DNA of 44,752 nucleotides from Parasteatoda tepidariorum (Eukaryota). Under the pieces are notes generated by a model. The model had not been told where the DNA came from. It did no database searches and saw only the letters and a program-made list of their open reading frames with translations. The DNA lies in NCBI RefSeq assembly GCF_043381705.1, contig NC_092214.1, positions 2,460,096 through 2,504,847 on the forward strand, in the 5' to 3' direction. The translations under genes and the position numbers were made by a program. This document shows, in pieces, positions 5,346-38,957 of the stretch (within the stretch, counting starts at the first letter, position 1; each line of letters opens with the position of its first letter).

Positions 5346-5519
5346 TGAGAAAATCACCTATATACTTTAGTGAAATTAAATGCACATGTCTTTTTGTTGC
5401 GCATGGTATGCTCATTTGTATTTTTCAGTGTATGAATTCTTTATGTGCCTTACAATGTACGAAAGATTATCAATTTTTATTTTAAATATAAATTTTTCTT
5501 TTAAAATGTATGAAAAAGA

Positions 5520-15114: not shown

Positions 15115-17729
15115 GGCATTTTTATCATGGCACTGCATTTTTAAAGGCATTGATGATATACTTAATCTCCTTTAATATTTTATGGATAATTATTTTTCGG
15201 AAAATATTGTTTTTAGAATTAAAAGTTTTGTTTTCAGAATTAAGAGGATATTTTTTTTCTATTTCTCTTTTTTACAACTTCAAATTTTTTTTCCGTATGG
15301 CTGTTAGTCAGCTTTTTTTATTCATCTTGAATATTTCTTTATATGGAATATTATCTTAAAATCTAAATTAGCTTTATTATCTTAAACCTTTCTAATAAAG
15401 TTTTTTTCCCTTTGCTCCATACTAAAAATACAGCTAAGTTTTGATTATTTTTTAATAACGACCGACTAAACTTATTTATATATAAAAAATATCAGGGTGC
15501 AAAGCCAAATTTTTCAACAAAAAATAAGCACTCAAATATATTTAAGCACTTAAAAAAATCATAGTTAAGATGTACACACTAATAAAAATGTCTTTCTTTT
15601 TATTGTTAAACCTTCTTCATAAATACTTAAGCAAAATGCAAACTAGTTTTCAAAGAACTTCACATAATCATGATAAAATAACTTCTAACAACTCTTTTTC
15701 TGGATTATATTGGCCACCATCGAAACAGTTGATACACAATTTTAAAAATATTCAATATTGAGTGGCTCATTTTATTTTTGATATATATTTATTAAATGAT
15801 ATATATTTATTAACTATTATTTAAAAAGGTTATAGAATGTATTTTTTAGATTTAAATAAAAGATAAATATTATTAATATAGATTAATATTATTGATCATA
15901 CCAAATTTATGAAGTTAAGTAAAGAACTAAGAAAACTTTAATAAATTCATATTGCAAATGTAAATTAGTGAATGTCTCCTAATAAATTCTTATATTTAGT
16001 ATTTCTTTAGTGGAATGACTAAAAAAAAAATTTTTTTTTTGAAATGTAAATACAATAAGTATTGAAACTGAATATTTTTGACAGAAATAAATTATTATAT
16101 GATCCCAACACAAATAATATTTAACAAATATGAGATAATTTAGTTTTTTATTTCAATTTTTTTAAAAATCAAATCATTAAGTGATGAATTAAAGTTTTTT
16201 GGAATGACAAATCTGAATAGCATGCTGCGTTTAAAATATTGAAAGCCCCTCTCTTCATACTTTTTTCAAAATCTTGTCTCTTAATATTATTAAATTTTTT
16301 CATAAAACAAATTAGGTATACTGAAAATTTTCAAAGTAAAAATACAATAATAAAAAGTTTTAATTTAAAAAAAGTACAATGTAGGTTTAAGAAATTATGC
16401 AATTAGTAGTCTGTCCCTCAGGAAAAATATCTTGCGTATGAAATTCTCAATTAATTCTTATGTTTATTAAATTAATTGAATAAAAAGACATGGAAATTTT
16501 GAGATGACGAAGCTTTGTGATTCTTGACAGCTCTGGGGAGGACCCACATGAAAATACGTAATTAGTAAGTGATCCCCAAGTCAAATTTAAAGATTTGAGT
16601 ATTGCTCTATAAATAAAATATCGAGAGAAGGCCATTAGCTTGCCAATGATGAAGACGATGACACTTCACCAACAATGACATTAACAAGAGAAATAAAATT
16701 TTCTTTTGCTATTAGGGAAAAAAAATTGGCAATATTTAGTCTGTCCCTGCAATTAGTGAAAATTTGAGAGATTTTTGAAAACGCAGCCGAGTTCCACATG
16801 AGAGTGTGAGAATTCTCCCCACTGAATCTAGTTCTGTATATACACATGCAGGCCTGCAGGTATTTCATCAAACATGTAATATGATTAATGCTTTCATATG
16901 CTATGGACCGACAATACGCTGAAATGGGTTAGGGTTGAATTAGTGAAAACTTTGAATAGAGAAATGTCTTGTAGTATAATTCAAGGCAAAAATCAACCTA
17001 AAAAAATCTCATATTGGGAAAGGGAAAATTATACACTTTTTAAAAATACTCAATAAAAAAAAGCACCTTAAAGGGCTTTTAAAAAGCAGGAAAAAAAGAA
17101 AAAAACCTTAAAGCACATTTTAAAAATCCTATACACCCATATTTATTAGTTATTTTTTTAAAAAAAAATTTGCTATTTGGCTGAATATTCAGTATGCGGT
17201 CGATATTTTTGACCAAATCACTATTCGTTACATCCCTAGTTTGGATGTTACTTTTAAAACCACAAATACTGAGAATTATGATTAGAAATGTGAATGTAAA
17301 GAATTTTAAACCATAACCGCTCTTAAATAAAGAGCATTAAAGAATAACCTTTTTAATAATTTGTATGTTCAATTGAATAAATTTTTTTTCATAGTATAAG
17401 ACAAATTAATTCACCCAAGTTATAAAATCTTGGGTATTTTACTTCTAATATCTATGGTTAACTTGTATTTTGCAATATTTCATTATTTAAAATTTTTTGA
17501 TATCACTATTCTTTGACTTCAACCCTATTGCCTTTTTAGTGTATAATAAATAATTTAAGGTAAAAATTTCCATTCTATTAATTTTTGACTGAAGAAATAA
17601 ATTTTACTTTAATTTTGCATTGGTACTTAAGATATATCTAATAATTTTTTGTACCATCCATGATTTCTTCTAAATTTTTTGTTCTAATCATGCCTGTTTT
17701 ATAGAGCAAAGTAGTTCATGGTATTCAAT

Positions 17730-17845
17730 ATGGAAGGAAGCATACTGGAAAATGCCTATCTCGGTCTTACTCCTCTAACTTCAACTGTGAATGAGTTTCT
17801 TCTTCAGTCTAGTGTAATTGAACCGGATGAATCTTTACTCAAGAG
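17730..17845 (+). CDS. Candidate exon 1 (coding part) of a small host gene
   Basis: ATG at 17730 with A at -3. The open frame reads MEGSILENAYLGLTPLTSTVNEFLLQSSVIEPDESLLK(R). It is preceded by a pyrimidine-rich acceptor ..CCTGTTTTATAG| at 17703 and followed by the donor AAGAG|GTAGAT. An in-frame stop sits at 17712-17714. The region is GC-richer than its flanks. Confidence 0.35.
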
Positions 17846-19188
17846 GTAGATTTTCTTTTATAATTATTAATTATATTTTGAATTTTAGTTATTAAATTTT
17901 AATTGTTCTTAACTTTTCAAAATGATTTGAATGTTTGGATATTTTTTATTATATTCTACTGGACTTTACCATTTTCTTATTTTCAACTTCAAAATATTAG
18001 TTTAATAAAAAAATGAATTTATTCTAAATCTCATAAATTATCAACGATTGTTGCGACTTGTTGCCAAAAAATATGCTTCTAGAACTGATATGTTATCACT
18101 CTGCAGCTATTTTTTAATGATTTTTTTCATATCCCGAATCAGCGATAATAGCTGATAATGTGGTGTTTGAATTGGATGTGTTATAACAGAGAAGAAAAAC
18201 ATGATGTAATAATAAATAGGTTGAGAGGTGGTAAATATCAATGTGAGATTATATTATAAGTAATGTAATGATGAAGAAAGTTGGAGGAGAAAAATTGTTA
18301 AAACAAATATGGATTAAATAGTGGTGGTTATTTTTAAAGTTGTATTTTCCTTGGTGTTAAGACATTTTGATTTTTTAAGGTTAATTAAGGCATTTTTTTT
18401 TATACAGGGGCTAATATCTTTGTTGACAGTGTGCATTTGATCATATTATATTTATGGAAATAGAATGTGAATTGCAATTTTTTACATTTAAGGTTAATGT
18501 GAATAATGTTGAAACCAAGCTCAGAAACAAATTTTGGTTGATTATTTTTTAAATATCATTTGCTTGAAGACAAATATTTATACTATATACATTTCTGAGC
18601 TTGAATAGCTTAGCAAAAGCAATTATCAGTATTAATTATTAAGCATAACAGCTTAACAAATTGCATCCGAATTTGCTACTATCATATTTTGCATTAATTA
18701 TTAACAATTGATCCTAATTAAGAACAAGCAACTTCTATTCCAATTATAGACAAGTAGCTATTTTAATATTAAAAGAGTAAATCAAAAGAGGCCTAGGCAG
18801 AATGCCGTAAACTCCCAACATGGCCCTTTTAGCCACACAAATTATCTTTAAACATAAATCATTTAAAACATTAATCTTCAATTCTAATAAACATTCGACA
18901 CACATCTTGGAAAAAAAACTTCTAGAAACATGAACAAATTAATACTAATGAAAATTCAATCAATATCAATATTTAAATATGAATTTTTTCCCCAAATTCT
19001 TTCATAACAGAAACCAAGTAGTAAAAATGTAGAATATATATGCTATATGAAGTTTAAATAAATACAATAACATTTATAATAAAAATGAAATTAAGAAAAT
19101 ATTCATTCAGGAAGAACAAGAACTTTAATACATACAATTTTTTATTCATAACATATTTTTTTCTCATTATTCAGTATTAACTGGTAAT

Positions 19189-19261
19189 ATGCATATTTTT
19201 AATATAGCCCTTTTAAAAGTTCAATATGCGTATTTTTAATATAGCCCTTTTAAAAGTTCCA
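19189..19261. repeat. 38-bp tandem duplication (GC[A/G]TATTTTTAATATAGCCCTTTTAAAAGTTC) in the LINE 3' region
   Basis: Direct reading. Confidence 0.7.
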
Positions 19262-19360
19262 TGGGCTGTTTGCACATTTGCTATTTCAGCACAATTATTA
19301 CTAATATGAACTACATTTAAATTCTTTCTAATATCCATTTACGCTTAAAAAATAATTTTC

Positions 19361-21804
19361 TCACAGAATCACCATCATACCAGGTTTAATAATGTCCCAT
19401 ATTACTTTGGTACAACCTTGACAAAGAGGATCAGATACAACACCCATTATGTACAGGTGTCTCCTGAGGATGCAGTGTCCAGTGAGGAGACCAATGTTCC
19501 TCAAACTGTTCCTGTTTAGCTTAAGAAGCTCTTTATGACGCACACTTTGACAGTTATGATTCAGCTCTTTAGCCTGTCTCTTACAATCCGAGTTGCACCA
19601 TTGCTCCTGGGTAATTTTGCCATAGAGCTTGAAAATAGATGCCATGAACGATGTGAGTGAGATTCCCAAAGTTGGTTCAGGTCCCCAGAAAATCACACTG
19701 GAGATGGCTTGTGTTGCTTCTTCAGCCAGCTCATTTCGAAAAATATCCTATATGTCCAGATACCCAATGTAGGTATATTTTGTTACGAGTAGAAAGGTCA
19801 CAAAGAACTCAGAAGCATTCCCACACTAGTGAAGAAGTGAATTTACACTTTGATAAGAGAGCAGCCTGACTGTCAGAACAGATTTGGATAGGTATATTTA
19901 GATAATCCCTGTTTAAGCATATCCTGCAGCTCAAGATAATAGCTTTGACCTCAGCCTGAAAAGCAGTGGCTTAACTACCTAGAGGAAAGTAGAGTATGGT
20001 ACCATCATTGGAGCAGTAAATTCCTGCCCCTGCTTTAAGACCAAGCCTTGATACATCAGTGTCCCATACCAGACACTTGCCTTCAAGCCATCGAGAAGAT
20101 TTAGTCCATTCATGTCTAGTAGGAAAATGGATCTTGAAGGGCTTATGAAAAGCCTTTCAAGACTATGCAAGACTTACTAGGCATGATAAAAGAAAAAATA
20201 TCTGACACCTGCAAAACAAGATGACCCCTTGACAAATGCTTGGAATATTCCTTCCATAAGCCGAGGTACATAAGATGTTTAATACCTGTCTGAGCTTCAG
20301 CTTCAATTCAATGGGAGAAGCCCAAGTAAGCTCTCAAGAGCAGCTGCAGGAGTGGTCCTGAGACAGCCTGACAAGGCTACACAGACCTTTCTTTGCAGTC
20401 TGTTAAGACTTGACCTGATGGAGCTGATCCTAATCCTAGACCACCAGACAATAGCGCCATGTTTGTCAATGGGGTTAATAATCATTGAGTACATCCTGTA
20501 AACTGAGCTATCTTGGGGCATAACCCCCAGGTTCTACCAATAGCATTTCTGCAAGACCAGGATATCATCTTGGCCCTGTGGATACAGTATTCTAGATGAG
20601 AACCCCAGTTATGTTTGGAGTCTTTAAAATCACCAAGAAATTTGACTTTCACAGTTAGTTCTAACCTATAATCTAGGTAATACACATCACCTAGATTAAG
20701 AAGCCTTTTCCTGGTGAAGGCCACAAGACTTATCTTGGAATTTTTAACAGATAAGCCAGATTCAAAGCATTATCTAGCTACTTCTGGAAGTGCACTATTC
20801 ATGATTTCAAATACTGTTTTACCATAATTGCCTCTGACAACAATATCACCATCATCAGCATACCCAACACAGGGAAGGCCAAGATTGGCTAGCCAAACTA
20901 GCAGAGTCCATAACCATACACCTTAATGATGGGTGACGAAGCCCCTCCTTGAGGGCAGCCTAAAGTAGCATGAACTCTCATGCTTGTGCCCAGTAAAGAG
21001 GAACAAACATACCTGGAGGACAACTGATTAGCTATCCACCTGGTGATATCCAGATTGATACCTCTGGTTTTAAGTGCATTGATGATAGTCTCAACAGGGA
21101 CTTTGTCAAAAACATCTTCAATATCAAAAAAATACCGCCAGAGCAATCTCTTCATCTGAGAGTGCTTTCTCAAGCATGAAGGAGAACTCATATAAAGCAG
21201 AGTCTATTGATAGCAGAGAGCCAGGTTGATAAGCATAGCATACTGTGAGGAGAACAGTGGCTTATCAACGAGTACAGAGTCTCTAAAATATCTGCCAATA
21301 AGTTTTTCTATGGCTTTCAACAGTTATGAAGTGAGGCAAGACAGACAAGAGGTGAGGCTGATTGGTCTAAATGATTTAGCCTCAAAGTAATTTTCCTTAC
21401 TTGGTTTTGGGAAGAAAATTACCCTGGTATTCCTCCAAGAATGAGGTTTATACCCAAAGGCTATACAGGTTCAAAAGATCCTACATAGAATAGAGTATAG
21501 TATGTCAATCTCCTTAGTAAGCATTACAAGTATGATATCATCCATACCTGGTGACTTATAGGGCTTAAATATTTAATAGAGCATATTACTTTTCGTAGGA
21601 GATCACCATCTTGGGGGCCTCCCAGTCATTTTCACTGTAAGTAGCTGTAGGACTTTTGAAAACATAGTCATTCTCTACAGGATGAAATCCAGGGAAGTGA
21701 GCTTCAAATAATTCACCAAGAGCCTCTTCGTCTGACTCACTATATTTTCCGTTTGTAAGATTGATAGCTGTCGGAGCAGCACAACAGATTTTTGTACTCA
21801 ACAC
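19361..21804 (-). pseudogene. LINE ORF2 (RT and C-terminal zinc-finger region), fragmented
   Basis: As above. ORF-track segments 21586..21804, 20898..21191, 20482..20724, 20303..20521, 19979..20170 and 19361..19696 all belong to one decayed ORF2. Confidence 0.7.
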
Positions 21805-21822
21805 GACAGATTTTTGTACTCA
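21783..21822. repeat. 17-bp tandem duplication (ACAGATTTTTGTACTCA twice) at the junction between the two LINE fragments
   Basis: Direct reading of acaacagatttttgtactcaacacgacagatttttgtactcag. Confidence 0.7.
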
Positions 21823-22350
21823 GAAACATAATTGAACAAAGTCTGGAAATGAATTCTTCCTTATACTTAACTTTTATTGATTTCAGTAAGGCATTTGACT
21901 TCCTGCTAGGTGTTTTCTGAATTTCATTTTAGCCATAAGGTTTTCTTGTTAATCCTGATTTAGGGTTTTGGTTCAATAGACCTCTGGTCGATGTGACCTG
22001 CTTTTTGGAGCTGCCCAACCTCTGAGTCTAAGACATTTGACTCTCTCAATAAGGGTATGCTGTGGATGATCTTAAGGAATTATCCCTGAAAAAATTTTAA
22101 ACATCATAAAGAGTATTTTTGACAGCAGTAAAGCCAGTGCAGAAGTTGATGGCACACTGACTAGATCATTTAATGTTCAAAAAGGAGTAAGACAAGGCTG
22201 TGTCCTTGTGGAATTCCTATTTATAATTGTCATCAATTGAATCATGAGGCAAACAATTCAAAATCACATACAATGAAAATTTGACACCACTTTAGAAGAC
22301 CTGGATTTTGCCGATGATATTGTTCTTATATCTAATTTTAATGATCTGAG
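21800..22350 (+). mobile_element. RTE/CR1-like non-LTR reverse transcriptase fragment (plus strand)
   Basis: The plus-strand translation gives ..IIEQSLEMNSSLYLTFIDFSKAFDFL, ..LWMILRNYGIPEKI (the printed GIP is my memory of the consensus; the sequence itself reads LRNYP followed by a stop), ..KASAEVDGTLTRSFNVQKGVRQGCVLVEFLFIIVIN*IMRQ and ..LEDLDFADDIVLISN (the FADD box at 22307..22318). It has one frame disruption and two in-frame TGA codons at positions where Trp is expected. Confidence 0.6.
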
Positions 22351-23052
22351 TATGAAAACACTAAGAGGGACCACCTCCCCATATTGGGCCCTCCTCCCAA
22401 GAGCAACATTCTCCCTGGGTTTCCTACCAAGTTGGGTCAGCACACGGGGGGTCGGGCGTTGCATCTGAAGGCCTCTTAGCTCCATCACTTCTCTTAGCGT
22501 CTTCCACTTTTTCTTCAGTTTCTTTCTCTGTCTCTTAGATAGTCCCGCGGTGCCAGGCATACTGTCCCCTGATTGTCTCTGGCCGAAACTCCAACGGAAG
22601 CAGGACTTGTGCCTTTGGACCTCTCCTTGCCAGCATTACTAGCAATAAGCTGCAAAGCAGCAATATTAGCACTGGGCTCACCCAAAGGCATACCATGTGC
22701 TACTGGAGACTGTAGTTTACTTTTCGAACAAGAAACTCTGCCTGATTCCTGAACGCACCCCTTGTTAACTGGTGCAACAGATAATGCTGTATCATAAGGT
22801 TTAACTTGAAGCATCAATTTAAACTGCCTGCCATTTAGTTAGTCAATGAAGAGTATCCAGGGGGTGCCGGCATTAACCCCTCAAATGTTTTGTAAGAAAT
22901 ATAATTTTTGCTAGATTTATTGTTCCTATTGTTCCATAATGAAAACTTATATTTTGCTTGTTGAAGTGATTTTTTTTAATTAGTCAATATGGTATTTAAA
23001 GTTTTGCTTATCTCTTGCTTTTATAAAATTTCACATTTTTTTTAAATTTCAG

Positions 23053-23114
23053 AATTGTTTTAGAAGCTAATCAGAATGTTTTGACAACTACTAGGAATAT
23101 ATTTTTAGAAGAAG
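23053..23114 (+). CDS. Candidate exon 2
   Basis: Acceptor TTTAAATTTCAG| and donor GAAG|GTTAGT. Phase 2 carried from exon 1 gives (R)IVLEANQNVLTTTRNIFLEE with no stops. The alternative acceptor at 23063 creates a stop. Confidence 0.35.
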
Positions 23115-23509: not shown

Positions 23510-23540
23510 CACTGGTGTAAGAAATTAAGAGAATTTGCAG
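23510..23540. repeat. Tc1-like left TIR
   Basis: About 28 of 31 nt match the reverse complement of 25005..25035. Patchier similarity extends to about 60 bp. Confidence 0.7.
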
Positions 23541-23722
23541 ACTTGGTCGATTATCTCTAGAACTACTGGATCGATTGTAATTAAATTTGATATGTACATA
23601 CATTGATGCAATCCAAAACAAATAACCATTCAACAATTGTAATACACAATTGTGATCGTGCGTAATACTCATTGGAGTCCAAATGCATGAAACAGCGGTT
23701 GCAGAATAAACAAAAAAATGGG

Positions 23723-24761
23723 TTAATAGGGGGTATGGTCTCCTCTTACAGGTATACAGGCTTTGCAGCATGATTTCATACTTGAAATAAGGCAGTTTAT
23801 CATTTCATGTAGCAATTGGTCCCACTCGTTCCGCAAGACTGTTTTCATTCCCTGGATGGTTCTCGGAGGGGGTAACAAGTTGCAATTGCCCTCCCCAGAG
23901 CATCCCAGATATGCTCTATAGGGTTGAGGCCTGGAGATCTTTCTGGCCAATCCATCAAGCGACTATCCTCCCTTTCTAGAAATTCGTTGACCAGGTGAGC
24001 TCTATGTGGCCGTGCATTATCGTCCATTAAAATGAACTCGGCCAACTACACCCCTGAAAAAGCAAACATAGGGCTCCAAGACCTCATCGCTATACCTCAC
24101 ACCAGTCACATATCCTCATTCAAAGACATGGAGAGGTGTGCGGCTATCCAACATGAGACTTGCCCAGAGACTTATCCAACATGAGACTTTTAAATCTGCT
24201 CCGCCATAATGGTCGATGTCGCGGACATTGAAGGGTAGGTAGTGGGTCCCTGGCTCTCTCCATATGAATGTACAGTGAGAATCTGTGTTTAGGCTGAACC
24301 GGGACTGATCAGTGAAGAGAACCGTCGCCCATTGATCCATACTCCAATCTCTATGCACTATGCTGAGTGGACTCTCCTGTTTGTAGAAGTGAGCGTGACG
24401 CTAACAGGAAGTATTCTTGCAAACAACCCTTTCTGATGAAGTCGTTTGAAAACAGTCGCCCTTGATACACGGGCTCCTGTGGCTGCATACAAGTCACAAG
24501 AGAGTTGAGAAACTGCAGCCCTTCTGTTACGCTTTGCTGTAATGGACACATGGCAATCTTCTCTGCTGTAGTGTTTCTTGGTCGATCTTGCTCAGGCTTC
24601 CTTTCCTTGAATCCGTTATCCTGAAACTGTTTCAATAAGTTACACACGATGCTGGGCTTTAAATTGAACTCTCTACAAGTCTGGACCTGAGATTGACCTG
24701 TTTCTAGCCTTCCCACAATTTGCCACCTCAATCCATCATGTAAACGTAGGTGGTTACTCAT
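23723..24761 (-). pseudogene. Tc1-family DD34E-type transposase, split over at least five frames
   Basis: Conserved blocks appear in order on the minus strand. They are the N-terminal HTH (LRWQIVGRLETGQSQ..LLKQFQDNG..RKPEQDRPR), then RNRRA..SQLSCDL..RVSRATVFKRLHQKGLFAR, then HRDWSMDQWATVLFTDQSRFSL...FIWREPG, then FILMDDNARPHRA...MDWPERSPGLNPIEHIWD, and finally C..KACI..RGDHTPY. Each is in a different frame. Confidence 0.8.
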
Positions 24762-25004
24762 TTTTACTGTTACAATATAAATTTAACCTATTGCTGCAAA
24801 ATAATACCAAAAAGTTCGCCAAGGTGTGCTAGCGAATGAAATGCGGCTTAATTTACGCTCACTTATATAGCCTGTTTCTTTACTGGTTACGCCTACACAC
24901 ATGTGTACGATTATGTCTGTACTAAGATGTGCAAGATTTGCATTTTTATCTAGAAGCAGTAGTTTAGCATTCAGTTCAGTTCTTTTCATGAAATTCGATA
25001 AAAT

Positions 25005-25035
25005 ATGCAAATTCTCTTAATTTATTTCACCAGTG
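25005..25035. repeat. Tc1-like right TIR
   Basis: Inverted copy of 23510..23540, followed by TA. Confidence 0.7.
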
Positions 25036-25499
25036 TAAACTAGCTCATTCTAAGTGAAATTGACCCAAATAAAAATAAGTCTCAGTGTGGTCATGTCGCA
25101 GATTTTCATGACAATTTTTGTAGAAAAACAACTAAAATAATTTTTTCAAAATATTGAACTAAAACTAATGTTAGGCCATTTTGAAATTTGACTCAATTTA
25201 AGGAAATTGTGTAACTCTAGATGGTGGCTCTTTTGTTGAAAGTATCCATATCTTTCTTATTTATAAGCTAATTTTCTTAATTTTGGTATCATTATAAAAG
25301 AAAGGTCGACACAACACTATGCAATTACACTATCAAAATGTAATAATTTTTTTAAAAAATTTATTAGTTTTTTTATCTTCAAATTTTAAGAATTTCTTAA
25401 TAAGAAGTAACTTGCACCACCTAATTTTTTCCTCATTATGTTAAATACTATGTTATGTTACTGTTAAGCATATGAAAATCAAGTGAATGTTTTTTGTCT

Positions 25500-26366
25500 A
25501 AATAAATAAAAAATGATTTTCAACAAAAATTCTTCAAGATTTTTTTTTAGCACAAAAACAATATTTCGTAGCCTTAAGAGTTTTTTCTTTATAATATTGA
25601 CTATATTTTTCCATATAAAAATAAAATGGGGATTTTCTGTTTTTGTCATTAAAAAAACAAAAAATGGTTTTTTGCCAAAATACATAAAGATTTCCTTATA
25701 ATAACAAGACAGTTTATTGACCTCAATTTTTTTTCTTCTGTTGTTTAATGTCATCTTTTTCAATTTGAAAAATATCAAAAGGGTTTTTTTTTTTTTTGGT
25801 CAGTGAAAATATGAAAACTGTTTCTTAGTCTTAATTTCTTGTTGCTTAATTTCTTATAGCACAAAAACTTTCTTGACTTCAATTGTTTTTCTTTTCTTTT
25901 TTTTGCAACTTGAAATGTTGTATTTTTCACTCTAAAAAATTAGGAAGTATTTTTTGTCTTAAAAAGGATAAAAAGTGTTTTTTTTATTAGCCAAAATTAA
26001 AAATTTTTATAGCACGAAAACAAAGTTTCTTGTTGTCATTTTTACATATATAATATTAAATGTTATACTTTTCAGCAAGAAAGAAGTTAAAAAAGTTTTT
26101 GGTTTTGGTCCTTAAAATAATAAAAAGTGATTTTTAGTCCAAATACTTAAAAAAAAATGTAGGTGAAATAACGAAGTTCTCCAATCTCAATAAAAAAAAC
26201 ACCTTCTTAGTTTTTTTTTCTATATTGAAAAATATAGCATTTTACATTATGAGAAAAAAAAATTTAAGGTCAAGAAACTTTGTCTTTGTGCTATTGAAAA
26301 ATCTTTGACTATTTTAGCTAAAAATCACTTTTTTTTAATATCCAAAAACAAAAAAAACCCAGTTGT

Positions 26367-26397
<31 letters not shown>

Positions 26398-26560
26398 CTT
26401 TAAAAGGCTCAGAAAGGCTTTATATACATATCTTATCAGAAAACGACTTTTTTATGAAAAAAAAAATACCCTCTTGATTTTTTTTTGTTAAAAAGTATAT
26501 TTAACATTTTGAGAAAAAAGAAACTGAGGTTGTGAAAGTTGTTACTTCCCAATATTAAAT
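25500..26560. repeat. Array of degenerate AT-rich repeat units in both direct and inverted orientation
   Basis: Direct copies: T(T/A)TAGCAC(A/G)AAAAC.. at 25546, 25853 and 26007. Inverted copy: 26267..26345 (AGGTCAAGAAACTTTGTCTTTGTGCTATTG...GCTAAAAATCACTTTTTT) is the reverse complement of 25955..26036. Also (TA)13 at 26367..26392. Confidence 0.5.
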
Positions 26561-31293: not shown

Positions 31294-31482
31294 TTAAAAT
31301 ATTTTCATCACTAATATATCATTAATAGTTAAAATACTTTTAGATTTTTTTGTTGAACATTTAACATTATTTGTGGAATATTTACCTAAGTGAATTAATC
31401 TGTTTAATTTTTTTAAATAATATTTATCTTTCATCATATGAGAAGTAGTGCCAGAATCAAGAATCCATATTTTTTTAATCAA
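31294..31482 (-). mobile_element. Possible Ty1/copia protease remnant
   Basis: The ORF contains KKIWILDSGTTSHMM, which resembles the copia protease active-site block (W/Y)(I/L)LDSGA(S/T)xHM. Only about 20 aa are diagnostic and no flanking copia domains were found. Confidence 0.3.
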
Positions 31483-32349: not shown

Positions 32350-32782
32350 TGTATAAGTTTCGGTGATGGGAATGTAAGACTTTCAAATGAAACAATATGG
32401 CAATGAAACATCCTCTTTAATAGTAAAAGTTAACAAACCATCAAGAAACTTCACAAACTCCAATTAACAAGTTATTCGTTAAAAAAACATTAAAAGTTGT
32501 TATTAAAAGAACAATTAAAACTTAAACTTTTGATTGTAAATATCTCATACAGCAGGTGGGCGTCACCTGGTAGAAACGGGATATCAGGACGAAGTCTCAA
32601 ACACTGTACAACAACCCCTTTTCACTCCCTGCCTTGGCCGCCGGTTGATGCTCCTCCACCGGGATTCATCCGCGCAGGAACTATTTCGGTTCGTCCTCCT
32701 ACCTTCGGACTTCGATCCAATACTCGATCCTTCTACCTCGGTTTTCATGCTACCTCAGCTGTCGCAACCAACAGCCTCTACA
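32350..32782 (-). repeat. 3' LTR (in element orientation) of the gypsy-like element
   Basis: About 95% identical by eye to 36884..37307, with about 20 substitutions plus one indel of about 9 bp near 32540. It starts TGTATAAG and ends CTCTACA on the plus strand. Confidence 0.85.
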
Positions 32783-33586
32783 GTAGCCCCCTCCCAGCGC
32801 TAGTGAGACTTTTCCAGCACATTGCTGATACTTTCCCTGAAACTTAACTCGACGGCCTGGTCGTGTCTTAACCTCTTTTGGCATGTCACTAGGGTCTGGG
32901 ATAGTAGATTCCTCTGTAGATTCGCTCATAACTGTTGATTCGCTTTTAGGAAATATGTCCTGTTCACCTCGGGATACATATGCTGGTTTTAGATAATCCA
33001 CATTTACCGTAATTTCCCGCCCATGAATAAGAATCCTAAAAACCTTCTCCCCTCGACTCAGCACTTGAAATAGACCCTCGTATGGTGGCTGCAGGCCTTT
33101 TTTCAGGACATCGGTCCTCAGGAATACATGACTGCACGATGAAAGGTCTTTACTTACAAAAACTGCTCTATGACCCTGATGTCTGGACTTTACTGGCAGC
33201 AACTCCTGCATGGTCTCTTTGAGCTTTCCAACAAGGTTTGCGGGATCCGCTGTACCAGTAGACGGACATAAAAATTCTCCAGGCAGTCGTATCGGAGCTC
33301 CAGAAACCATTTCCGCTGTCGTTGCTTGCAAGTCTTCCTTCCATGCAGCTCTAAAACCTAAAAGAATCGTAGGTAAAACTCTGGTCCACTGACTTGTATT
33401 GTAGGCTCTAATCGCTCCCTTCATCTGTCTGTGAAATCTTTCCACTTGACCATTTCCTGCGGGATGATAAGGGCTTGTTCGATGACGAGCCGAACCCAGG
33501 AACTTAGTCAGGGCATCGAACAGTGAGGCTTCGAACTGTGTTCCCTGGTCTGTTGTGATGCATAGAGGTATTCCAAATCTAGCAAT
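32750..33586 (-). CDS. Integrase core and C-terminal GPY/F domain, same frame as 33587..35326 after the TGA
   Basis: Reading through the TGA gives IARFGIPLCITTDQGTQFEA...PYHPAGNGQVERFHRQMK (the DD..E core), then LQPPYEGLFQVL (GPY/F). The ORF ends in the PPT/LTR. Confidence 0.8.
   Translation of the reverse strand: MARFGIPLCITTDQGTQFEASLFDALTKFLGSARHRTSPYHPAGNGQVERFHRQMKGAIRAYNTSQWTRVLPTILLGFRAAWKEDLQATTAEMVSGAPIRLPGEFLCPSTGTADPANLVGKLKETMQELLPVKSRHQGHRAVFVSKDLSSCSHVFLRTDVLKKGLQPPYEGLFQVLSRGEKVFRILIHGREITVNVDYLKPAYVSRGEQDIFPKSESTVMSESTEESTIPDPSDMPKEVKTRPGRRVKFQGKYQQCAGKVSLALGGGYCRGCWLRQLR
32787..32795 (-). other. Polypurine tract GGGAGGGGG immediately upstream of the 3' LTR
   Basis: The minus strand reads CTGGGAGGGGGCTAC|TGTAGAGG.., where TGTAGAGG begins the LTR. 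Confidence 0.55.
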
Positions 33587-35326
33587 TCATCCAGCATAGA
33601 AAATCTCAGCAACCGATTTGGCTATTATATCTACGAGCGGGTAAACTTCTGGCCACTTGGGAAAACAGTTGACGCAAGTTAGACAATAGCGAAAACCTTC
33701 TGATGGCGGCAAGGGACCTACGATGTCGATGTGCACGTGCTGGAACCTGGAATTTGGTGGAACAAATGTACCAAGCTTGCTCTGCGTGTGACGTGTCACC
33801 TTAGAACGTTGGCAAGCTAAGCATTGCTGAGCCCATGTCCTAACATCTTTCTTTATACCAGGCCAAACATATCGCTCTTCCACCAACCTTATAGTAGCCT
33901 TAATACCTGGATGTGAAATAGAATGCAGTTTGGAAAAGACGTTTTTTCTGTCCACTTTCGGTACGAATGGTCGAATCCGTTTGGTAGATACATCACAAAA
34001 CAGTTCCACACCAGGATCACTTATTACGAATGGTTGAAGTACTAAAGATGAGTTACCGGTTTGAGCTAAAATTTCGGCTAGTTCCTGGTCACCTTTTTGG
34101 TTGTCAGCCATTTCTTGAAAATTGACGTGGGAAGGTGTTTCTATGGTAGCAATGTTTACTCGGGACAGCTCATCTGCAACCACATTATCTATTCCCTTCA
34201 CGTGCTGAATATCCGTAGTGAATTGGCCAATAAAATCCAAATGACGCCATTGTCTTGGCGAACACTTATCTTCCTTTTGTTTAAAGGCATATATAAGCGG
34301 CTTGTGGTCAGTGTAGATAGTAAACGGCCGACCCTCTACCATATGACGAAAGTATTTGACTGCCATGTACACAGCCAAGAGCTCTCTGTCGTAAGCACTA
34401 TACTTTTTTTGAGATGGTGCAAGCTTCTTTGAATAAAAACCAAGCGGTTGCCACTCTTTCTCGATCCACTGATGCAAAGCAGCACCCATCGCAGTATCTG
34501 AAGCGCCTACCACCATCGCCAACTGTGCATTCATGACAGGATGGTACAGCGTTGTTGAATTTGCCAATTCTTTCTCGCTCTTCACAAAGGCAGCAACTGC
34601 TTCCTCCGACCACTCGATCGCGCTTTTATCATTTTTCTTAGCACCTTTTAAATATTCCTTCAAAATTGCTTGAGTGTGGGCAGCTCTCGGTATGAATCTT
34701 CTATAAAAATTCAAGACTGCAAGAAATCGACGCAGCTCTCTAATTGTAACTGGTTGAGGAAAATCAGCAATTGCAGAAACTTTATCAGGAAGTGGAGTAA
34801 TACCCTTTTCCGTTACACAGTGCCCTAGGAATTCTACTGAAGACTGTCCCAGGACACATTTGCTTATGTTGAGTGTTACCCCATATTGAGCAAAACGTTG
34901 AAAAACTCTTTTTAAATGCATTAAATGTTCTTCTTCGTTCTTCAAAGCTACTAATACGTCATCAAAATAAGGTACACAAAATTCAAACTCATCTAAGACT
35001 TGATGAATGAAGCGTTGGAAAGTTGCGGCAGCATTTGATAATCCAAACGGCATATACAAAAACTCGAACAATCCAAACGGGGTTGTTACCGCAGTCTTTG
35101 GCACGTCTTTGCTACGCACCGGGATCTGATAATACGCTTTTTCCAGGTCCAAGGTAGAAAATATCCTTTTACCTTCCAAAACCTGAAAACAGTCTTGCAT
35201 GTGGGGAACAGGGTACCTATCTGGCACGGTCACACCATTGAGACGACGAAAATCACCACATGGTCGCCAGTCTTTTTTAGCACCATGTGCAACGGACTTG
35301 CCCAACAGCTTTTGGAAGGCTGACAA
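33587..35326 (-). CDS. Reverse transcriptase, RNase H and integrase N-terminal part, ending at an in-frame TGA
   Basis: Contains WRPCGDFRRLN; YQIPV..PFGLFEFLYMPFGLSNAAATFQR; YFDDVLV (the YxDD box); RNase H VVGASDTAMGAALHQ; the integrase zinc finger H..H..CLACQRSK; and HIDIVGPLP (the first D of the DDE triad). Confidence 0.85.
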   Translation of the reverse strand: MSAFQKLLGKSVAHGAKKDWRPCGDFRRLNGVTVPDRYPVPHMQDCFQVLEGKRIFSTLDLEKAYYQIPVRSKDVPKTAVTTPFGLFEFLYMPFGLSNAAATFQRFIHQVLDEFEFCVPYFDDVLVALKNEEEHLMHLKRVFQRFAQYGVTLNISKCVLGQSSVEFLGHCVTEKGITPLPDKVSAIADFPQPVTIRELRRFLAVLNFYRRFIPRAAHTQAILKEYLKGAKKNDKSAIEWSEEAVAAFVKSEKELANSTTLYHPVMNAQLAMVVGASDTAMGAALHQWIEKEWQPLGFYSKKLAPSQKKYSAYDRELLAVYMAVKYFRHMVEGRPFTIYTDHKPLIYAFKQKEDKCSPRQWRHLDFIGQFTTDIQHVKGIDNVVADELSRVNIATIETPSHVNFQEMADNQKGDQELAEILAQTGNSSLVLQPFVISDPGVELFCDVSTKRIRPFVPKVDRKNVFSKLHSISHPGIKATIRLVEERYVWPGIKKDVRTWAQQCLACQRSKVTRHTQSKLGTFVPPNSRFQHVHIDIVGPLPPSEGFRYCLTCVNCFPKWPEVYPLVDIIAKSVAEIFYAG

Positions 35327-35628
35327 ACCCCTGATGCTACCAGAAATTCAAACTCTTGTTTTGCAGCCTTCAACTTATCTGGCGATAAACGTCGAGGTTT
35401 CGAAAAAACAGGAGGTCCTTTTGTGTGCATCCAATGTTCTACTCCATGCTTAACTTTTCTTGGCGTGACACCTGACCTAATCAGAGCAGGAAATTCTGAG
35501 AACAAATTGTGGAATTTAGAGTTCTCTAAAATTACCTTTACCATTGAAGCATTCCCAGCATACCGGGTACCTCTTGTTTGCAACTTGGTCAAAGGATCAA
35601 TTACTGCAGCATTTTTGACGTCTACTAA
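35230..35628 (-). pseudogene. pol segment: protease C-terminus and reverse transcriptase N-terminus, ending at a frameshift
   Basis: ..KLKAAKQEFEFLVASGVCQPSKSCWASPLHMVLKK is the conserved RT N-terminal block. The expected continuation WRPCGDFRRLN is in the -1 frame. The shift falls inside the A6 run at plus 35273..35278 (T6 on the plus strand). Confidence 0.7.
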
Positions 35629-35982
35629 TTACCCAAAATTGCGTAAGAAGTCAGCTCCGATAATTGAATGAGGCACGGCAGCGATGATAAAAGGCCAGCT
35701 GAACTCTCCTCTGAGTCCGAGGTCTAATTTCAACAGGCGTTGGCCAAACTTTGGAATCGTCGAACCATTTGCGGTGAACAATTTCATCTGAGAAGACTGG
35801 TCGCTAGATGCATAGGCAGCACGAGGTATCACAGATATGTCAGCTCCCGTATCGATGAGATAACGTGAGGATGTAGACTTGTCCGTCAGATAAAGTCGCT
35901 GAATCATCACTTCGCCGTCACCCTTTTGACTGGATGACGGCCTCAGCAGTTTTCCGGTAAGAATGAACATGGAGGTCTGCAT
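35629..35982 (-). CDS. Retroviral-type aspartic protease, start of pol, closed by an in-frame TAA
   Basis: Carries LIDTGADISVIP, the D(T/S)G active site, and IIGADFLRNFG. The same frame reopens straight after TAA (35629..35631) with LVDVKN.., the usual protease-to-RT junction. Confidence 0.75.
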   Translation of the reverse strand: MQTSMFILTGKLLRPSSSQKGDGEVMIQRLYLTDKSTSSRYLIDTGADISVIPRAAYASSDQSSQMKLFTANGSTIPKFGQRLLKLDLGLRGEFSWPFIIAAVPHSIIGADFLRNFG

Positions 35983-36713
35983 TTTGTCGCTCGTTGTTTG
36001 AATATTTTATGATACCAGCAATACTGTGAACTTGCAGACTGTCGACTTCGGCTAGTAGAGCGTTTCTGACTAGTACTTCTTGACCGGTCACTTGTACGGG
36101 CTTCCAACCGTGAGACACGAGCAGTGATCTCTGTCAATAAAGACCGTAAATCCGTCTGATCCGCTGAACCAGCAACCACGCTGACTGACTGTGCGTTAGT
36201 TGTTGTAGCCATGATACCATCCGCCATCTCTGCCAGCTTGTCCAGGTTATCGTTGGAAATCGCCAAAATCTGCTGAACATTAGTAGGCAACCTCTGCAAA
36301 AATAAAGATTTAAGAAGTTCGTCGTTAATTCTCATGCCGGCTTTATTCCGCATTTCCAGAAGCAGTCTTGAAGGACGGCGGTCGCCAAGTTGCATCCCCG
36401 AAATTAAATCCCTTAAGCGTTGAGCTTCAGATTTAGCATACTGAGCGCACAATCTTTTTTTAAGTGCGGTGAAATGCTTATCCACAGGTGGACAGGTAAC
36501 AATATCACTGATAATCGCCAGTTCCTCCGGTTGTAGAGCAGAAATTACATGGTGAAATTTCGTTGACTCTGTAGTTACTCCAGCAAGAGTGAACTGACTT
36601 TCAATTTGTCTGAACCACAATTCTGGATTAGCTCTCCAAAAAGGTGGTGGCTTTACAGTGACACGAGCAATTTGTTGATCAGCAGTTTCCGTAGATTCGG
36701 GCATTTTTGGCAT
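35943..36713 (-). CDS. Gag-like capsid protein of the gypsy-like element
   Basis: A 256-aa ORF starts about 150 nt downstream of the PBS. It has an Arg/Ser-rich tail and a terminal Cys-His motif, CWYHKIFKQRATKCRPPC. It overlaps the protease ORF by 40 nt in the -1 frame. Confidence 0.7.
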   Translation of the reverse strand: MPKMPESTETADQQIARVTVKPPPFWRANPELWFRQIESQFTLAGVTTESTKFHHVISALQPEELAIISDIVTCPPVDKHFTALKKRLCAQYAKSEAQRLRDLISGMQLGDRRPSRLLLEMRNKAGMRINDELLKSLFLQRLPTNVQQILAISNDNLDKLAEMADGIMATTTNAQSVSVVAGSADQTDLRSLLTEITARVSRLEARTSDRSRSTSQKRSTSRSRQSASSQYCWYHKIFKQRATKCRPPCSFLPENC

Positions 36714-36863
36714 TAATCCAAAATTTATAAGTCTAACAATAGAAGTAATTTGTACTCACGGCTTGCCAAAAATTTTAAAACTTGAAACATACCAGCATTT
36801 CTCCGTGATCCTTCAACTAGGAGAATTTCTCAAATACAGTTTGCAGAAACAGAAATATACGTA

Positions 36864-36881
36864 TTCGTTCACAGGTCACCA
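36864..36881 (-). other. Putative tRNA primer-binding site, TGGTGACCTGTGAACGAA
   Basis: On the minus strand, 2 nt downstream of the 5' LTR end (..CA|AT|TGG..), 18 nt are complementary to a tRNA 3' end of the form ..TTCGTTCACAGGTCACCA-3'. The tRNA species was not identified. Confidence 0.5.
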
Positions 36882-36883
36882 AT

Positions 36884-37307
36884 TGTATAAGTTTCGGTGA
36901 TGGGAATGTAAGACTTTCAAAAGAAACAATATGGCAATGAAACATCCTCTTTAATAGTGAAAGATAACAAACCATCAAGAAACTTCAAAAACTCCAATTA
37001 ACAAGTTATTCGTTTAAAAAACATTAAAAGTTGTTATTAAAAGAACAATTAAAACTTAAACCTTTGATTGTAAACTGCAGGTGGGCGTCACCTGGTAGAA
37101 ACGGGATATCGGGACGAAGTCTCAGACGCTGTACAACAACCCCTTTTCACTCCCTGCCTTGGCCGCCGGTTGATGCTCCTCCGCCAGTATTCATCCGTGC
37201 AGGAACTATTTCAGTTCGTCCTCCTATCTTCGGTCTTCGATCCAATACTCGATCCTTCTACCTCGCTTTTCATGCTACCTCAGCTGTCGCAACCAACAGG
37301 CTCTATA
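36884..37307 (-). repeat. 5' LTR (in element orientation) of the gypsy-like element
   Basis: Direct repeat of 32350..32782 with TG..CA termini. The plus-strand ORF 37031..37342 inside it is an LTR artefact, mirrored by 32497..32847 in the other LTR. Confidence 0.85.
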
Positions 37308-38588
37308 CTAGTGAATATTTTTATTTATTTATAGGTTTCTAGCACTATTTTCATTTTTTCATGGTAAGCTTTTTTCATCTGATAATAAAAGCTTTATGTA
37401 TACCTCTGCACCAACAGTGCTTAGTGCTGTTTCCTTTCTTTTGGTTTTATATCATTAGGGCAATTTTCACACAAAACGCTATTGATTCTCTTTATAGTTA
37501 ACACCATATTTATTTTAATCGATGAAGGAATGTAGTTTACCCTTGTCTGCAATAAAGACGAAAGCAAGTTTCTATCCATGTTGTTGAACTCAAAACTTTA
37601 CATTCCAATTATTCAAGTTGGGAAGTACTTGCAGCAATACTGTCGTGGTGGCCAACTCGGAAGCTTTCAAATTTTGTCATTTAAAATTCATATTTGTACT
37701 GTCTTTTTGTATTTTATCATTTAACTCTCAAAAAGTTCTCAAGACGTAGTGCAATTTGCAAAAAAGGAAATTAACTTCAAAACATCTACATTTTTGATTG
37801 CTTTCTTGCCTAAATTGTTGTTCCAGATTTTCCAGATTGTGACTTCTCCCTATATTTTAAAAGTCAAGAATAAAGACATTAATATACTTATATACAATTA
37901 ATTTTGCACTTTCTCTCACATTTTCTTTACATATAAAAATGTTTTTAGAAACAATACTTTAAATTATGTTCAGAAAAAAAGTTAAAAATAAGAAAAGTTT
38001 GTATAATTTATTCAAGAGTATTTCAAAAAATGTAACGCCATGTAAACCTTTAAAACATATCACAAAGCTACAAAATTAAATATCTCTTAAATCTTCATTT
38101 GTCTTTGTTTTTCTTCTAATCTCTCACAAGCTTTTCACTGATGCTAAATTTCCTTGCAGTAATGTAGTTTTATTTTCTCTAGCATACACAATAACTTTCA
38201 ACTTAAAAAAACTTTTTATCCTGAAAACCTTTGTAGAGATAATAATTTTTATTATGTTTTTTTATTTTAGAAATTTTTATCTTTGATTTTTTCAGAGGTC
38301 TGACACACCCTTATACAATGGGCCGACTTATACTCTGAGTTATGCAGTATTTAGAGAAAGTGCTTTTTGTATTTGATTTTGTAACTTAAAATATCATTTA
38401 CACTAATTCATTAGCAATTTCAAGGTAATATCCTTGAGTCTTAGTATGTGAAAACCCTATAATTTAATCAAAAGTTATTCAAGGTGTTCAGCTATCTGTG
38501 CATTGTACACTTTCAGTAGAGAATTTTTAATCTTTTCATTTTAAATTTGAAATAAGTAAATATGTATCTTATGTATAATCTCTTTCAG

Positions 38589-38666
38589 GCAAATCATTAA
38601 AAAAGAGAAGACTTTGTGCAAGGGCAGATCGCATTTCTGCATATATCGATAGATCTTTATCTCGTG
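38589..38666 (+). CDS. Candidate exon 3
   Basis: Acceptor ATCTCTTTCAG| and donor CTCGTG|GTTAGT. Phase 1 carried from exon 2 gives GKSLKKRRLCARADRISAYIDRSLSR with no stops. The other two frames contain stops. Confidence 0.35.
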
Positions 38667-38839
38667 GTTAGTATAATCACTTCAGTATTAAATTTTTCTA
38701 ATAGTAGATATACAGGGTGGCCTTAAAAAGGCAAATTAAGAAAATTTTATCGATCTGAAAATGTAACGGAAATTAAAATAGCCAGAAAGTCAGAAAATAA
38801 ATAAATTTGAATTTAAGGTACCTAGAAGTCTATTTCTAC

Positions 38840-38857
38840 AAAAAAAAAAAAAAAAAA
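38840..38857. repeat. A18 homopolymer
   Basis: Direct reading. Confidence 0.9.
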
Positions 38858-38941
38858 CTGATATTCTAATGGTCCAAAAATACTTTTTATTTCTAAGTCT
38901 AATAGTTATTATTAGTGCTTTGTATGATAATTGATTTTCAG

Positions 38942-38957
38942 GAATAAGACACAACTG
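38942..38957 (+). CDS. Candidate terminal exon (coding part)
   Basis: Acceptor TTGATTTTCAG|. Phase 1 gives GIRHN and then TGA. A GC-richer 3' UTR-like stretch follows, with AATAAA at 39112..39117. Confidence 0.25.

What the first reader, a model, noticed from the sequence alone, without database searches (positions are those of the whole stretch)
17704..38957. Candidate four-exon gene for a small basic protein of about 90 aa, with transposon-filled introns
Exon 1 (ATG 17730..17845), exon 2 (23053..23114), exon 3 (38589..38666) and exon 4 (38942, with stop at 38955..38957) each have a strong pyrimidine-tract AG acceptor and a GTAGAT or GTTAGT donor. Their phases chain without a stop (2, then 1, then 1). 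They give MEGSILENAYLGLTPLTSTVNEFLLQSSVIEPDESLLKRIVLEANQNVLTTTRNIFLEEGKSLKKRRLCARADRISAYIDRSLSRGIRHN*. The acceptor ahead of exon 1 (17703) implies an additional upstream non-coding exon. I cannot name the protein.
Basis: inference. Interest (0 to 1): 0.6.

Follow-up and report, generated by a model that had tools for sequence, protein, structure and literature searches.

The report
Unconfirmed small gene among spider transposons
The four short open stretches, their splice-like motifs and the transposons between them are really there. Nothing outside the sequence supports a gene, and a chain this good turns up by chance in roughly one window in ten, so it is most likely not a gene and at best an unremarkable lineage-specific one.

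Summary
The observation reproduces. The four segments, the AG/GT motifs and the 90-aa translation are as described, except that the stop is at 38956-38958, one base later than stated. The DNA between them holds three real transposons, all on the minus strand: a LINE relic, a Tc1/mariner element and a young Ty3/Gypsy LTR retrotransposon. Their best protein matches are to spiders.

The gene reading is not established. The peptide has no Pfam domain, no PDB relative and no homologue in the large protein collections. An exhaustive search with exon 1 alone also found nothing real. Hundreds of thousands of four-exon chains meet the same splice and ORF criteria in this window, and in shuffled copies of it.

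There is some support from the sequence itself. Realistic block-shuffled controls reach that score in 5-9% of strands, so the signal is marginal.

My estimates are about 0.5 for a chance chain in non-coding, transposon-rich DNA, about 0.33 for a real lineage-restricted small gene, and about 0.15 for some other transcript. Spliced RNA-seq reads would decide. Interest is low either way.

The parts
17704..17845 (+). Candidate exon 1. The ORF is open from 17715 to 17846, with in-frame ATGs at 17718 and 17730. The donor is GAG|GTAGAT and a putative acceptor lies at 17703.
   Evidence: GC is 0.40 against 0.20 in the flanks. GC by codon position is 0.55/0.34/0.29. Amino-acid composition score is in the top 1-3% of 356 non-TE ORFs. 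The donor is weak at 4 of 7 consensus positions. No homologue was found.
23053..23114 (+). Candidate exon 2, 62 nt, in the roughly 600-nt gap between the LINE relic and the Tc1 element.
   Evidence: Acceptor score 17 and donor score 6/7. It is the only AG...GT pair of that quality with an open frame on either strand; 0.25 per strand are expected in shuffles. It is open in a single frame, which matches the phase of exon 1. GC is 0.26, the same as its flanks. GC by codon position is 0.35/0.25/0.15.
38589..38666 (+). Candidate exon 3, 78 nt. It encodes an arginine-rich amphipathic stretch.
   Evidence: Acceptor score 16, donor score 4/7. GC by codon position is 0.32/0.56/0.16. The antisense frame 38572-38667 is also open and scores even higher on composition. 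The maximum helical hydrophobic moment is 0.77 at residues 71-88, permutation p=0.005.
38942..38958 (+). Candidate exon 4: five codons and TGA (38956-38958).
   Evidence: Acceptor score 14. It carries no statistical weight, because all three frames close within 30 nt of the acceptor and the unspliced exon 3 also terminates at once.
19300..22900 (-). Degenerate non-LTR (LINE) retrotransposon inside the proposed intron 1. Boundaries are approximate.
   Evidence: There is a block of 0.38-0.40 GC. Minus-strand ORFs are fragmented. Pfam RVT_1 hits 20898-21191 at E=6.8e-8.
23510..25035 (-). Tc1/mariner-like DNA transposon inside the proposed intron 2.
   Evidence: Terminal inverted repeats of about 43 bp at 86% identity. 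CACTGGTG...CACCAGTG ends, flanked by TA on both sides. Helix-turn-helix N-terminus of a transposase at 24351-24761. The ORF is broken across frames.
32350..37311 (-). Young Ty3/Gypsy LTR retrotransposon inside the proposed intron 2.
   Evidence: LTRs at 32350-32786 and 36884-37311, 93% identical. Gag (DUF7041), aspartyl protease and RT-RNaseH-integrase zinc domain are present. The Pol ORF is 68% identical to an Oedothorax gibbosus protein and 61% to a Trichonephila clavipes protein. The flanks are CTAGA and CTAGT.
25090..26867 (.). Large imperfect inverted repeat (foldback-like) inside the proposed intron 2.
   Evidence: Self-BLAST aligns 26189-26867 with 25794-25090 at 66% identity over 741 bp.

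Best explanation
The region is most likely non-coding, AT-rich, transposon-rich DNA from an arachnid, probably a spider. It could be intergenic or a long intron. The four 'exons' are short open stretches that happen to lie between AG and GT dinucleotides and happen to chain in phase.

What is demonstrably present is three minus-strand transposable elements (a LINE relic, a Tc1/mariner element and a young Ty3/Gypsy element) plus older repeats. On this reading there is no mechanism to describe beyond transposon insertion into neutral DNA, and the 90-aa peptide is not made.
For: Chance expectation:
- Short ORFs are cheap at 25% GC. There are 356 stop-free stretches of at least 35 codons outside the TEs.

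No external support:
- No Pfam hit at E<=10.
- No homologue in 5.8 billion cluster representatives, which demonstrably include several spider proteomes.
- No exact entry among 15 billion proteins.
- An exhaustive phmmer search with exon 1 against 1.84 billion representatives gave only a tandem-repeat artefact.
- No PDB match.
- A composite of the 14 most protein-like non-TE ORFs in the window also found nothing.

Weaknesses of the model itself:
- Two of three donors match only 4 of 7 consensus positions, and GTTAGT and GTAGAT are not preferred donor forms.
- Exon 4 and the stop carry no information.
- Exon 3 is equally open on the antisense strand, with a better composition score.
- No credible downstream in-phase exon exists.
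- Block-shuffled controls reach the chain's combined score in 5.4-8.9% of strands, and a reversed-sequence control reaches 6.91 against 7.43.
Against: - It ranks first of 75,761 plus-strand chains on codon periodicity plus splice score (T=7.43). The best real-sequence controls reach 6.21 and 6.38.
- GC by codon position is 0.44/0.40/0.22, and position 3 is lowest in each of the three exons separately.
- None of 757 decoy chains from real sequence reaches its periodicity: 0.194 against a maximum of 0.109.
- Only 0.7-2.5% of mononucleotide-shuffled strands match it.
- Its amino-acid composition score exceeds the maxima of all 30 shuffles.
- Exon 2 has the best splice-site pair in the window.

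All three transposons are antisense to the proposed gene, which is the orientation favoured for TEs retained in introns. That rests on established knowledge and is weak here (1 in 8 by chance).

The homology searches are also insensitive for a 90-aa, fast-evolving protein. The source species itself appears to be absent from the protein collection, since the best hit to the TE Pol ORF is only 68-78% identical.
Confidence: 0.5

Rival explanations
1. A real, lineage-restricted (orphan) small protein-coding gene on the plus strand. It would have three coding exons (17718/17730-17845, 23053-23114, 38589-38666), ending either at the TAG just inside the next intron (86 aa) or after a five-codon fourth exon (90 aa). 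Its introns have been expanded from about 11 kb to about 21 kb by three antisense transposon insertions. The product would be a mostly helical, mildly basic protein with an arginine-rich amphipathic C-terminal helix and no assignable function.
For: - It is the top-ranked chain in the window on a combined periodicity and splice score.
- GC3 is lowest in every exon.
- The composition score is above all shuffles.
- Exon 1 shows a sharp GC step, 0.40 against 0.20 in the flanks, exactly at the proposed boundaries.
- The 17730 ATG has A at -3 and G at +4.
- Exon 2 has the best splice pair in the window, and its single open frame matches the phase of exon 1.
- There is an amphipathic segment with permutation p=0.005.
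- All three TEs are antisense.
- The peptide is not TE-derived, since it has no hits at all.
Against: - No homologue or domain was found anywhere.
- Realistic nulls give p of about 0.05-0.09 per strand.
- The donors of exons 1 and 3 are weak.
- Exon 2 shows no compositional contrast with its flanks.
- The antisense frame of exon 3 looks at least as protein-like.
- The periodicity statistic was chosen after the candidate had been looked at.
- There is no promoter or 5' exon evidence.
Confidence: 0.33
2. One or more of the segments, most plausibly 17704-17845 and 23053-23114, are real spliced exons, but of a non-coding RNA or of a transcript with a different exon structure. The 90-aa ORF would then be incidental or only partly right.
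For: - The splice-site quality of exon 2 and the long pyrimidine tract with a CTAAT branch-like motif ahead of 17704 are the strongest individual signals.
- Several alternative third exons chain almost as well: 25268-25339, 28853-28906 and 31925-32003.
- Exon 4 is uninformative.
Against: - There is no transcript evidence and no Rfam family in the window.
- The codon periodicity seen in all three exons would be unexplained for a non-coding RNA.
Confidence: 0.12
3. The GC-richer, periodic segments (exons 1 and 3) are eroded remnants of old coding sequence, either a decayed transposon ORF or a pseudogene. That would explain codon-like periodicity without a living gene.
For: - The window is full of TE relics and other GC islands of 0.36-0.55.
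- The codon-position GC pattern of exon 1 (0.55/0.34/0.29) resembles that of the Gypsy ORFs (0.53/0.38/0.39).
Against: - No similarity to any TE or other protein at E<=1, although TE families are extremely abundant in the collection: 3,543 hits for the Gypsy Pol ORF.
- No repeat copy of these segments occurs within the window.
Confidence: 0.05

Closest known systems
Chance ORF chains in AT-rich non-coding DNA (false-positive ab initio gene models)
   Same: The ORFs are short (62-128 nt) and barely longer than the proposed exons. AG/GT motifs are abundant. There is no homologue. The terminal exon consists of a few codons, and huge numbers of equivalent chains exist.
   Different: This particular chain is the best in the window on codon periodicity plus splice score. 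It sits in the top 1-9% of null maxima, depending on the null used.
Taxonomically restricted (orphan) small protein genes of arthropods
   Same: The predicted product is under 100 aa, has no detectable homologue or domain, and is simple and mostly helical. Such genes are easily missed by annotation.
   Different: Membership requires evidence of transcription and translation or of purifying selection. None is available here.
Spider genes with long, transposon-laden introns
   Same: The background is AT-rich (about 25% GC outside the TEs). Published spider genomes have 28.6-33.6% GC, with genes covering about 27% of the genome and CDS about 4% (PMC8693713). The candidate exons are short and separated by kilobases that contain LINE, Tc1/mariner and Ty3/Gypsy insertions antisense to the putative gene.
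   Different: That the TEs lie in introns, rather than in intergenic DNA, is exactly what is unproven.
Ty3/Gypsy LTR retrotransposons, Tc1/mariner DNA transposons and LINEs
   Same: These are the parts of the finding that are certain. The domain content, LTRs, TIRs and TA duplication fit the families.
   Different: Nothing is unusual about them. The Gypsy copy is young (LTRs 93% identical), but its pol is split into at least two ORFs. The Tc1 and LINE copies are degenerate.

Membership tests
Spliceosomal (GT-AG) protein-coding gene | A canonical AG acceptor and GT donor at every proposed junction | tested here: met
   All junctions are AG|...|GT. Acceptor scores are 14-17 and donor scores 4, 6 and 4 out of 7.
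Spliceosomal (GT-AG) protein-coding gene | A continuous ORF from ATG to stop across the junctions | tested here: met
   One search gives 90 aa, with the stop at 38956-38958. By itself this is expected by chance.
Spliceosomal (GT-AG) protein-coding gene | Coding statistics (codon periodicity, composition) beyond what non-coding DNA gives | tested here: inconclusive
   The chain ranks first in the window. Family-wise p is 0.007-0.025 against mononucleotide shuffles but 0.05-0.09 against block shuffles. A reversed-sequence control reaches 6.91 against 7.43.
Spliceosomal (GT-AG) protein-coding gene | Conservation of the product or exons in other genomes | tested here: not met
   Searches gave no domain, homologue or exact entry. 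Sensitivity is limited for a 90-aa query, and the source species seems absent from the collection.
Spliceosomal (GT-AG) protein-coding gene | Spliced transcripts spanning the junctions; a promoter or 5' exon | not testable with these tools
   No eukaryotic transcript or genome collection is searchable here. The upstream exon is inferred from a single ordinary acceptor.
Ty3/Gypsy LTR retrotransposon (32350 to about 37307) | Two direct LTRs flanking gag, protease and RT-RNaseH-integrase in that order | tested here: met
   The LTRs are 93% identical. DUF7041 gag, RVP, RVT_1, RT_RNaseH and Integrase_H2C2 are present in that order on the minus strand.
Ty3/Gypsy LTR retrotransposon (32350 to about 37307) | A target-site duplication of 4-5 bp | tested here: inconclusive
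   The flanks are CTAGA and CTAGT, matching at 4 of 5 positions. The exact 3' LTR end is uncertain by a few bases.
Tc1/mariner DNA transposon (23510-25035) | Terminal inverted repeats with a TA target duplication | tested here: met
Tc1/mariner DNA transposon (23510-25035) | A DDE/D transposase catalytic domain | tested here: inconclusive
   Only the N-terminal helix-turn-helix domains reached Pfam significance. The downstream ORF fragments gave no hit, and the ORF is broken.
Non-LTR (LINE) retrotransposon (about 19300-22900) | A reverse transcriptase domain without LTRs | tested here: met
   RVT_1 hits at E=6.8e-8. There is no flanking direct repeat. The clade and the endonuclease were not examined.

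The most novel reading that the evidence does not exclude
The three or four segments form a genuine, unannotated, taxonomically restricted gene of a spider. It would encode a protein of about 86-90 aa with an arginine-rich amphipathic helix, and it would have stayed functional while a LINE, a Tc1/mariner and a young Ty3/Gypsy element inserted, all antisense, into its introns.
Probability: 0.3. Interest if true: 0.25.

Novelty: not a real feature. Interest (0 to 1): 0.15.

Why it matters
It matters little either way. If the chain is chance, the region is ordinary transposon-rich arachnid DNA. If it is real, it adds one more orphan small-protein gene with transposon-expanded introns. That is a known kind of thing, of interest mainly for annotation of that species.

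The practical lesson concerns the scan. In a genome with 25% GC, AG/GT motifs and phase-compatible short ORFs carry essentially no evidential weight. Codon-position composition is the only intrinsic signal worth scoring.

Tried and rejected
Homology and lookup searches that found nothing:
- Pfam scan of the 90-aa peptide at E<=10.
- Word-indexed homology search with the peptide.
- Exact lookups of the M-E-G and M-V-F-N start variants.
- PDB sequence search; the best E-values were 0.5-0.8.
- Pfam scan of ten other long non-TE ORFs; only noise appeared.
- The last homology search, run on a composite of the 14 most protein-like non-TE ORFs to see whether the window lies inside a conserved gene.

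Exhaustive search:
- Its single hit, P0121, is a tandem-repeat protein whose five short matched stretches sum to 35 bits. I rejected it as an artefact.

RNA searches:
- The GC-rich patch after exon 4 contains a T-arm-like GGTTCTATCCC on the minus strand, so I looked for a tRNA or SINE there. ARAGORN and Rfam found nothing in the window.

Gene-structure checks:
- A search for a downstream in-phase exon that would extend the ORF found no convincing candidate.
- Other high-scoring plus-strand ORFs (29898-30008, 31709-31816) lack splice motifs.
- The possible cassette exon 28853-28906 is lysine-rich low complexity derived from an A-run.

Methods with limits:
- The amino-acid composition log-likelihood turned out to discriminate poorly, because the antisense frame of exon 3 scores highest in the window.
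- Whole-peptide helical periodicity was not significant: band p=0.35 and mean p=0.08.
- Structure prediction was not attempted, because spliced sequences are not accepted.
Full report
**1. What the sequence shows**

The window is strongly AT-rich, at 22-30% GC. Three blocks of 38-44% GC interrupt it at about 19-25 kb and 32-37 kb.

- Exon 1: ATG at 17730, exon end at 17845, followed by GTAGAT.
- Exon 2: 23053-23114, preceded by ttttttttaaatttcag and followed by GTTAGT.
- Exon 3: 38589-38666, preceded by ctctttcag and followed by GTTAGT.
- Exon 4: an acceptor gattttcag ahead of 38942.

Joining the four segments gives exactly the quoted 90-aa peptide.

Four corrections apply:
- The TGA stop is at 38956-38958, one base later than stated.
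- There is a second in-frame ATG at 17718, just after an in-frame TAG at 17712-17714.
- If exon 3 is not spliced, the frame ends at once (GGT TAG), so exon 4 is not needed to terminate the ORF.
- The product is only mildly basic, with pI 8.98 and net charge +1.6.

**2. The surroundings**

The GC-rich blocks are transposable elements, all coding on the minus strand.

- **Ty3/Gypsy LTR retrotransposon, 32350 to about 37307.** It has 437-bp LTRs that are 93% identical. It carries gag (DUF7041), aspartyl protease and an RT-RNaseH-integrase zinc domain. Its flanks read CTAGA and CTAGT.
- **Tc1/mariner-like element, 23510-25035.** It has terminal inverted repeats of about 43 bp and TA on both flanks. 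Its transposase is broken across frames, and only the helix-turn-helix N-terminus is recognisable.
- **Fragmented LINE, about 19300-22900.** It has an RVT_1 domain.

The Gypsy Pol ORF finds 3,543 relatives. The best named ones are from spiders: Oedothorax gibbosus at 68%, Trichonephila clavipes at 61%, and Araneus ventricosus. From this I infer that the window comes from a spider or a close arachnid relative.

No hit exceeds 78% identity for such a young element. That suggests the species itself is not represented in the protein collection. Published spider genomes are AT-rich (28.6-33.6% GC). In Tetragnatha, genes cover about 27% of the genome and CDS about 4% (PMC8693713).

So 'transposon-filled' is correct. 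Whether the DNA around the transposons is intron is the open question.

**3. External evidence for a gene: none**

- The 90-aa peptide has no Pfam match even at E<=10.
- It has no homologue at E<=1 among 5.8 billion cluster representatives, which demonstrably include spider proteomes.
- It has no exact entry among about 15 billion proteins under either start codon.
- It has no PDB relative.
The only hit below E=0.001 is an 831-aa tandem-repeat protein matched in five short stretches, which is an artefact.
- A composite of the 14 most protein-like non-TE ORFs from both strands of the window also found nothing. There is therefore no sign that the window sits inside any conserved gene.

These negatives are weaker than they look. 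The query is short, the word index needs exact 5-mers, and the species seems to be missing from the collection.

**4. Is the chain more than chance?**

- At this composition a codon is a stop about 9% of the time. The non-TE part of the window holds 356 stop-free stretches of at least 35 codons.
- Each proposed exon nearly fills its own small ORF.
- I scored sites simply, as pyrimidines in the 20 nt ahead of YAG and matches to MAG|GTRAGT. On that scale the acceptors (14, 17, 16, 14) and donors (4, 6, 4 of 7) are mostly ordinary. 409 of 2206 AG sites score at least 14, and 347 of 2033 GT sites score at least 4.
- Counting four-exon chains whose sites are all at least as good gives 295,204 on the plus strand and 38,000-670,000 in locally shuffled copies.

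**5. Intrinsic signals in favour**

Several independent looks were less dismissive.
- Exon 2 is the only AG...GT pair on either strand with acceptor at least 17 and donor at least 6 plus an open frame; 0.25 per strand are expected. Its one open frame matches the phase of exon 1.
- Exon 1 is a sharp GC island, at 0.40 against 0.20 in the flanks, bounded by the proposed sites.
- GC by codon position is 0.44/0.40/0.22 for the joined CDS. Position 3 is lowest in each exon separately: 0.55/0.34/0.29, 0.35/0.25/0.15 and 0.32/0.56/0.16. This is the pattern expected of coding sequence in an AT-rich genome.
- None of 757 decoy chains from real sequence reaches the candidate's periodicity, 0.194 against a maximum of 0.109.
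The best real-sequence controls reach 6.21 (plus strand without exon 1) and 6.38 (minus strand).
- A crude amino-acid composition likelihood also puts the chain above the maxima of all 30 shuffles.
- Residues 71-88 form a strongly amphipathic arginine-faced helix, with permutation p=0.005. Two other periodicity measures were not significant.

**6. How strong those signals really are**

The answer depends on the null.
- Mononucleotide local shuffles reach the candidate's score in 0.7-2.5% of strands.
- Shuffles of 7- or 11-nt blocks keep homopolymer runs and are closer to real non-coding DNA. They reach it in 5.4% and 8.9% of strands.
- Reversed real sequence gives 6.91 and 5.79.

Allowing for two strands, a chain this good is expected in roughly one such window in ten.

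The composition score is also unreliable. The highest-scoring non-TE ORF in the whole window is the antisense frame of exon 3, at 38572-38667.

I settled on the periodicity statistic after looking at the candidate, which inflates its apparent significance.

The remaining weaknesses are these:
- Donors GTAGAT and GTTAGT depart from the usual GTRAGT.
- Exon 2 shows no compositional contrast with its flanks.
- No credible further in-phase exon lies downstream.
- The inferred upstream exon rests on one unremarkable acceptor.

**7. Weighing**

- Prior: I take about 0.1 that such a window holds the 5' part of a gene with no detectable homologue.
- Intrinsic evidence: a likelihood ratio of about 4-7.
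- TE orientation: a small bonus because all three TEs are antisense. This is established knowledge about intronic TEs, and 1 in 8 by chance.
- Annotation: a small penalty for absence from every annotated proteome.

This gives about one chance in three that this is a real coding gene roughly as drawn. I put about one in two on a chance chain in non-coding DNA. The remainder goes to a real transcript with another structure or no coding role, or to a decayed coding relic.

**8. Comparison with what is known, and novelty**

The certain parts (Ty3/Gypsy, Tc1/mariner, LINE) are ordinary members of well-known families. The uncertain part would, if real, be an orphan small-protein gene with transposon-expanded introns, which is a known kind of thing. 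Nothing here points to a new mechanism.

Spliced RNA-seq reads across 17845^23053 and 23114^38589, or in-phase conservation at the syntenic locus of a related spider, would settle it. Neither can be obtained with the tools available.

Noticed in passing
window 32350-37311 (minus strand): A young Ty3/Gypsy LTR retrotransposon. Its LTRs are 93% identical. Gag (DUF7041), protease and RT-RNaseH-integrase ORFs are largely open, but pol is split into at least two ORFs (33587-35326 and 32750-33445). Its closest proteins come from linyphiid and araneid spiders at 61-68% identity, which is the only clue to the source organism.
   Followed up: partly
window 23510-25035: A Tc1/mariner-like element with terminal inverted repeats of about 43 bp (86% identity) and TA on both flanks. 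The transposase is broken across at least three frames.
   Followed up: partly
window 38572-38667 (minus strand): The antisense frame of 'exon 3' is also open (PRDKDLSIYAEMRSALAQSLLFFNDLPERDYT). It has the most protein-like composition score of all 589 non-TE ORFs of at least 28 codons. It lacks plausible splice sites on that strand. It shows that this 96-nt patch is unusual on both strands, or that the score is noisy.
   Followed up: partly
window 25090-26867: A large imperfect inverted repeat with arms of about 700 bp at 66% identity (25090-25794 against 26189-26867). It contains nested shorter inverted repeats and a 34-bp palindrome at 26363-26396. It could be a foldback-type element or two old inverted TE copies.
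   Followed up: no
window 4243-5358 and 7669-8398; 15490-15683 and 29131-29346; 86-193 and 567-678; 6908-7073: Old dispersed repeats: two direct pairs at about 69% identity, one inverted pair at 67%, a MITE-like inverted pair at 83% near the window start, and a 166-bp palindrome. None overlaps the proposed exons.
   Followed up: no
window 38942-39100: A GC-richer patch (up to 0.49) directly after 'exon 4'. It contains GGTTCTATCCC on the minus strand, reminiscent of a tRNA T-arm or a tRNA-derived SINE. ARAGORN and Rfam found no tRNA or other RNA family. All plus-strand frames are closed.
   Followed up: partly
window 44454-44645 (minus strand): A 64-aa ORF with the motif GPRWTACSLRSTTAVW...Y..LYLLFEL. 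From memory, it resembles the conserved C-terminal region of hAT/ZMYM1-like domesticated transposases. It had no Pfam hit at E<=1 and no hit in the composite homology search.
   Followed up: partly
window 3021-3380: The most GC-rich non-TE island, up to 0.55 GC, with overlapping ORFs on both strands. There was no homologue in the composite search. Its nature is unknown; it could be a TE relic or a CpG-type island.
   Followed up: no
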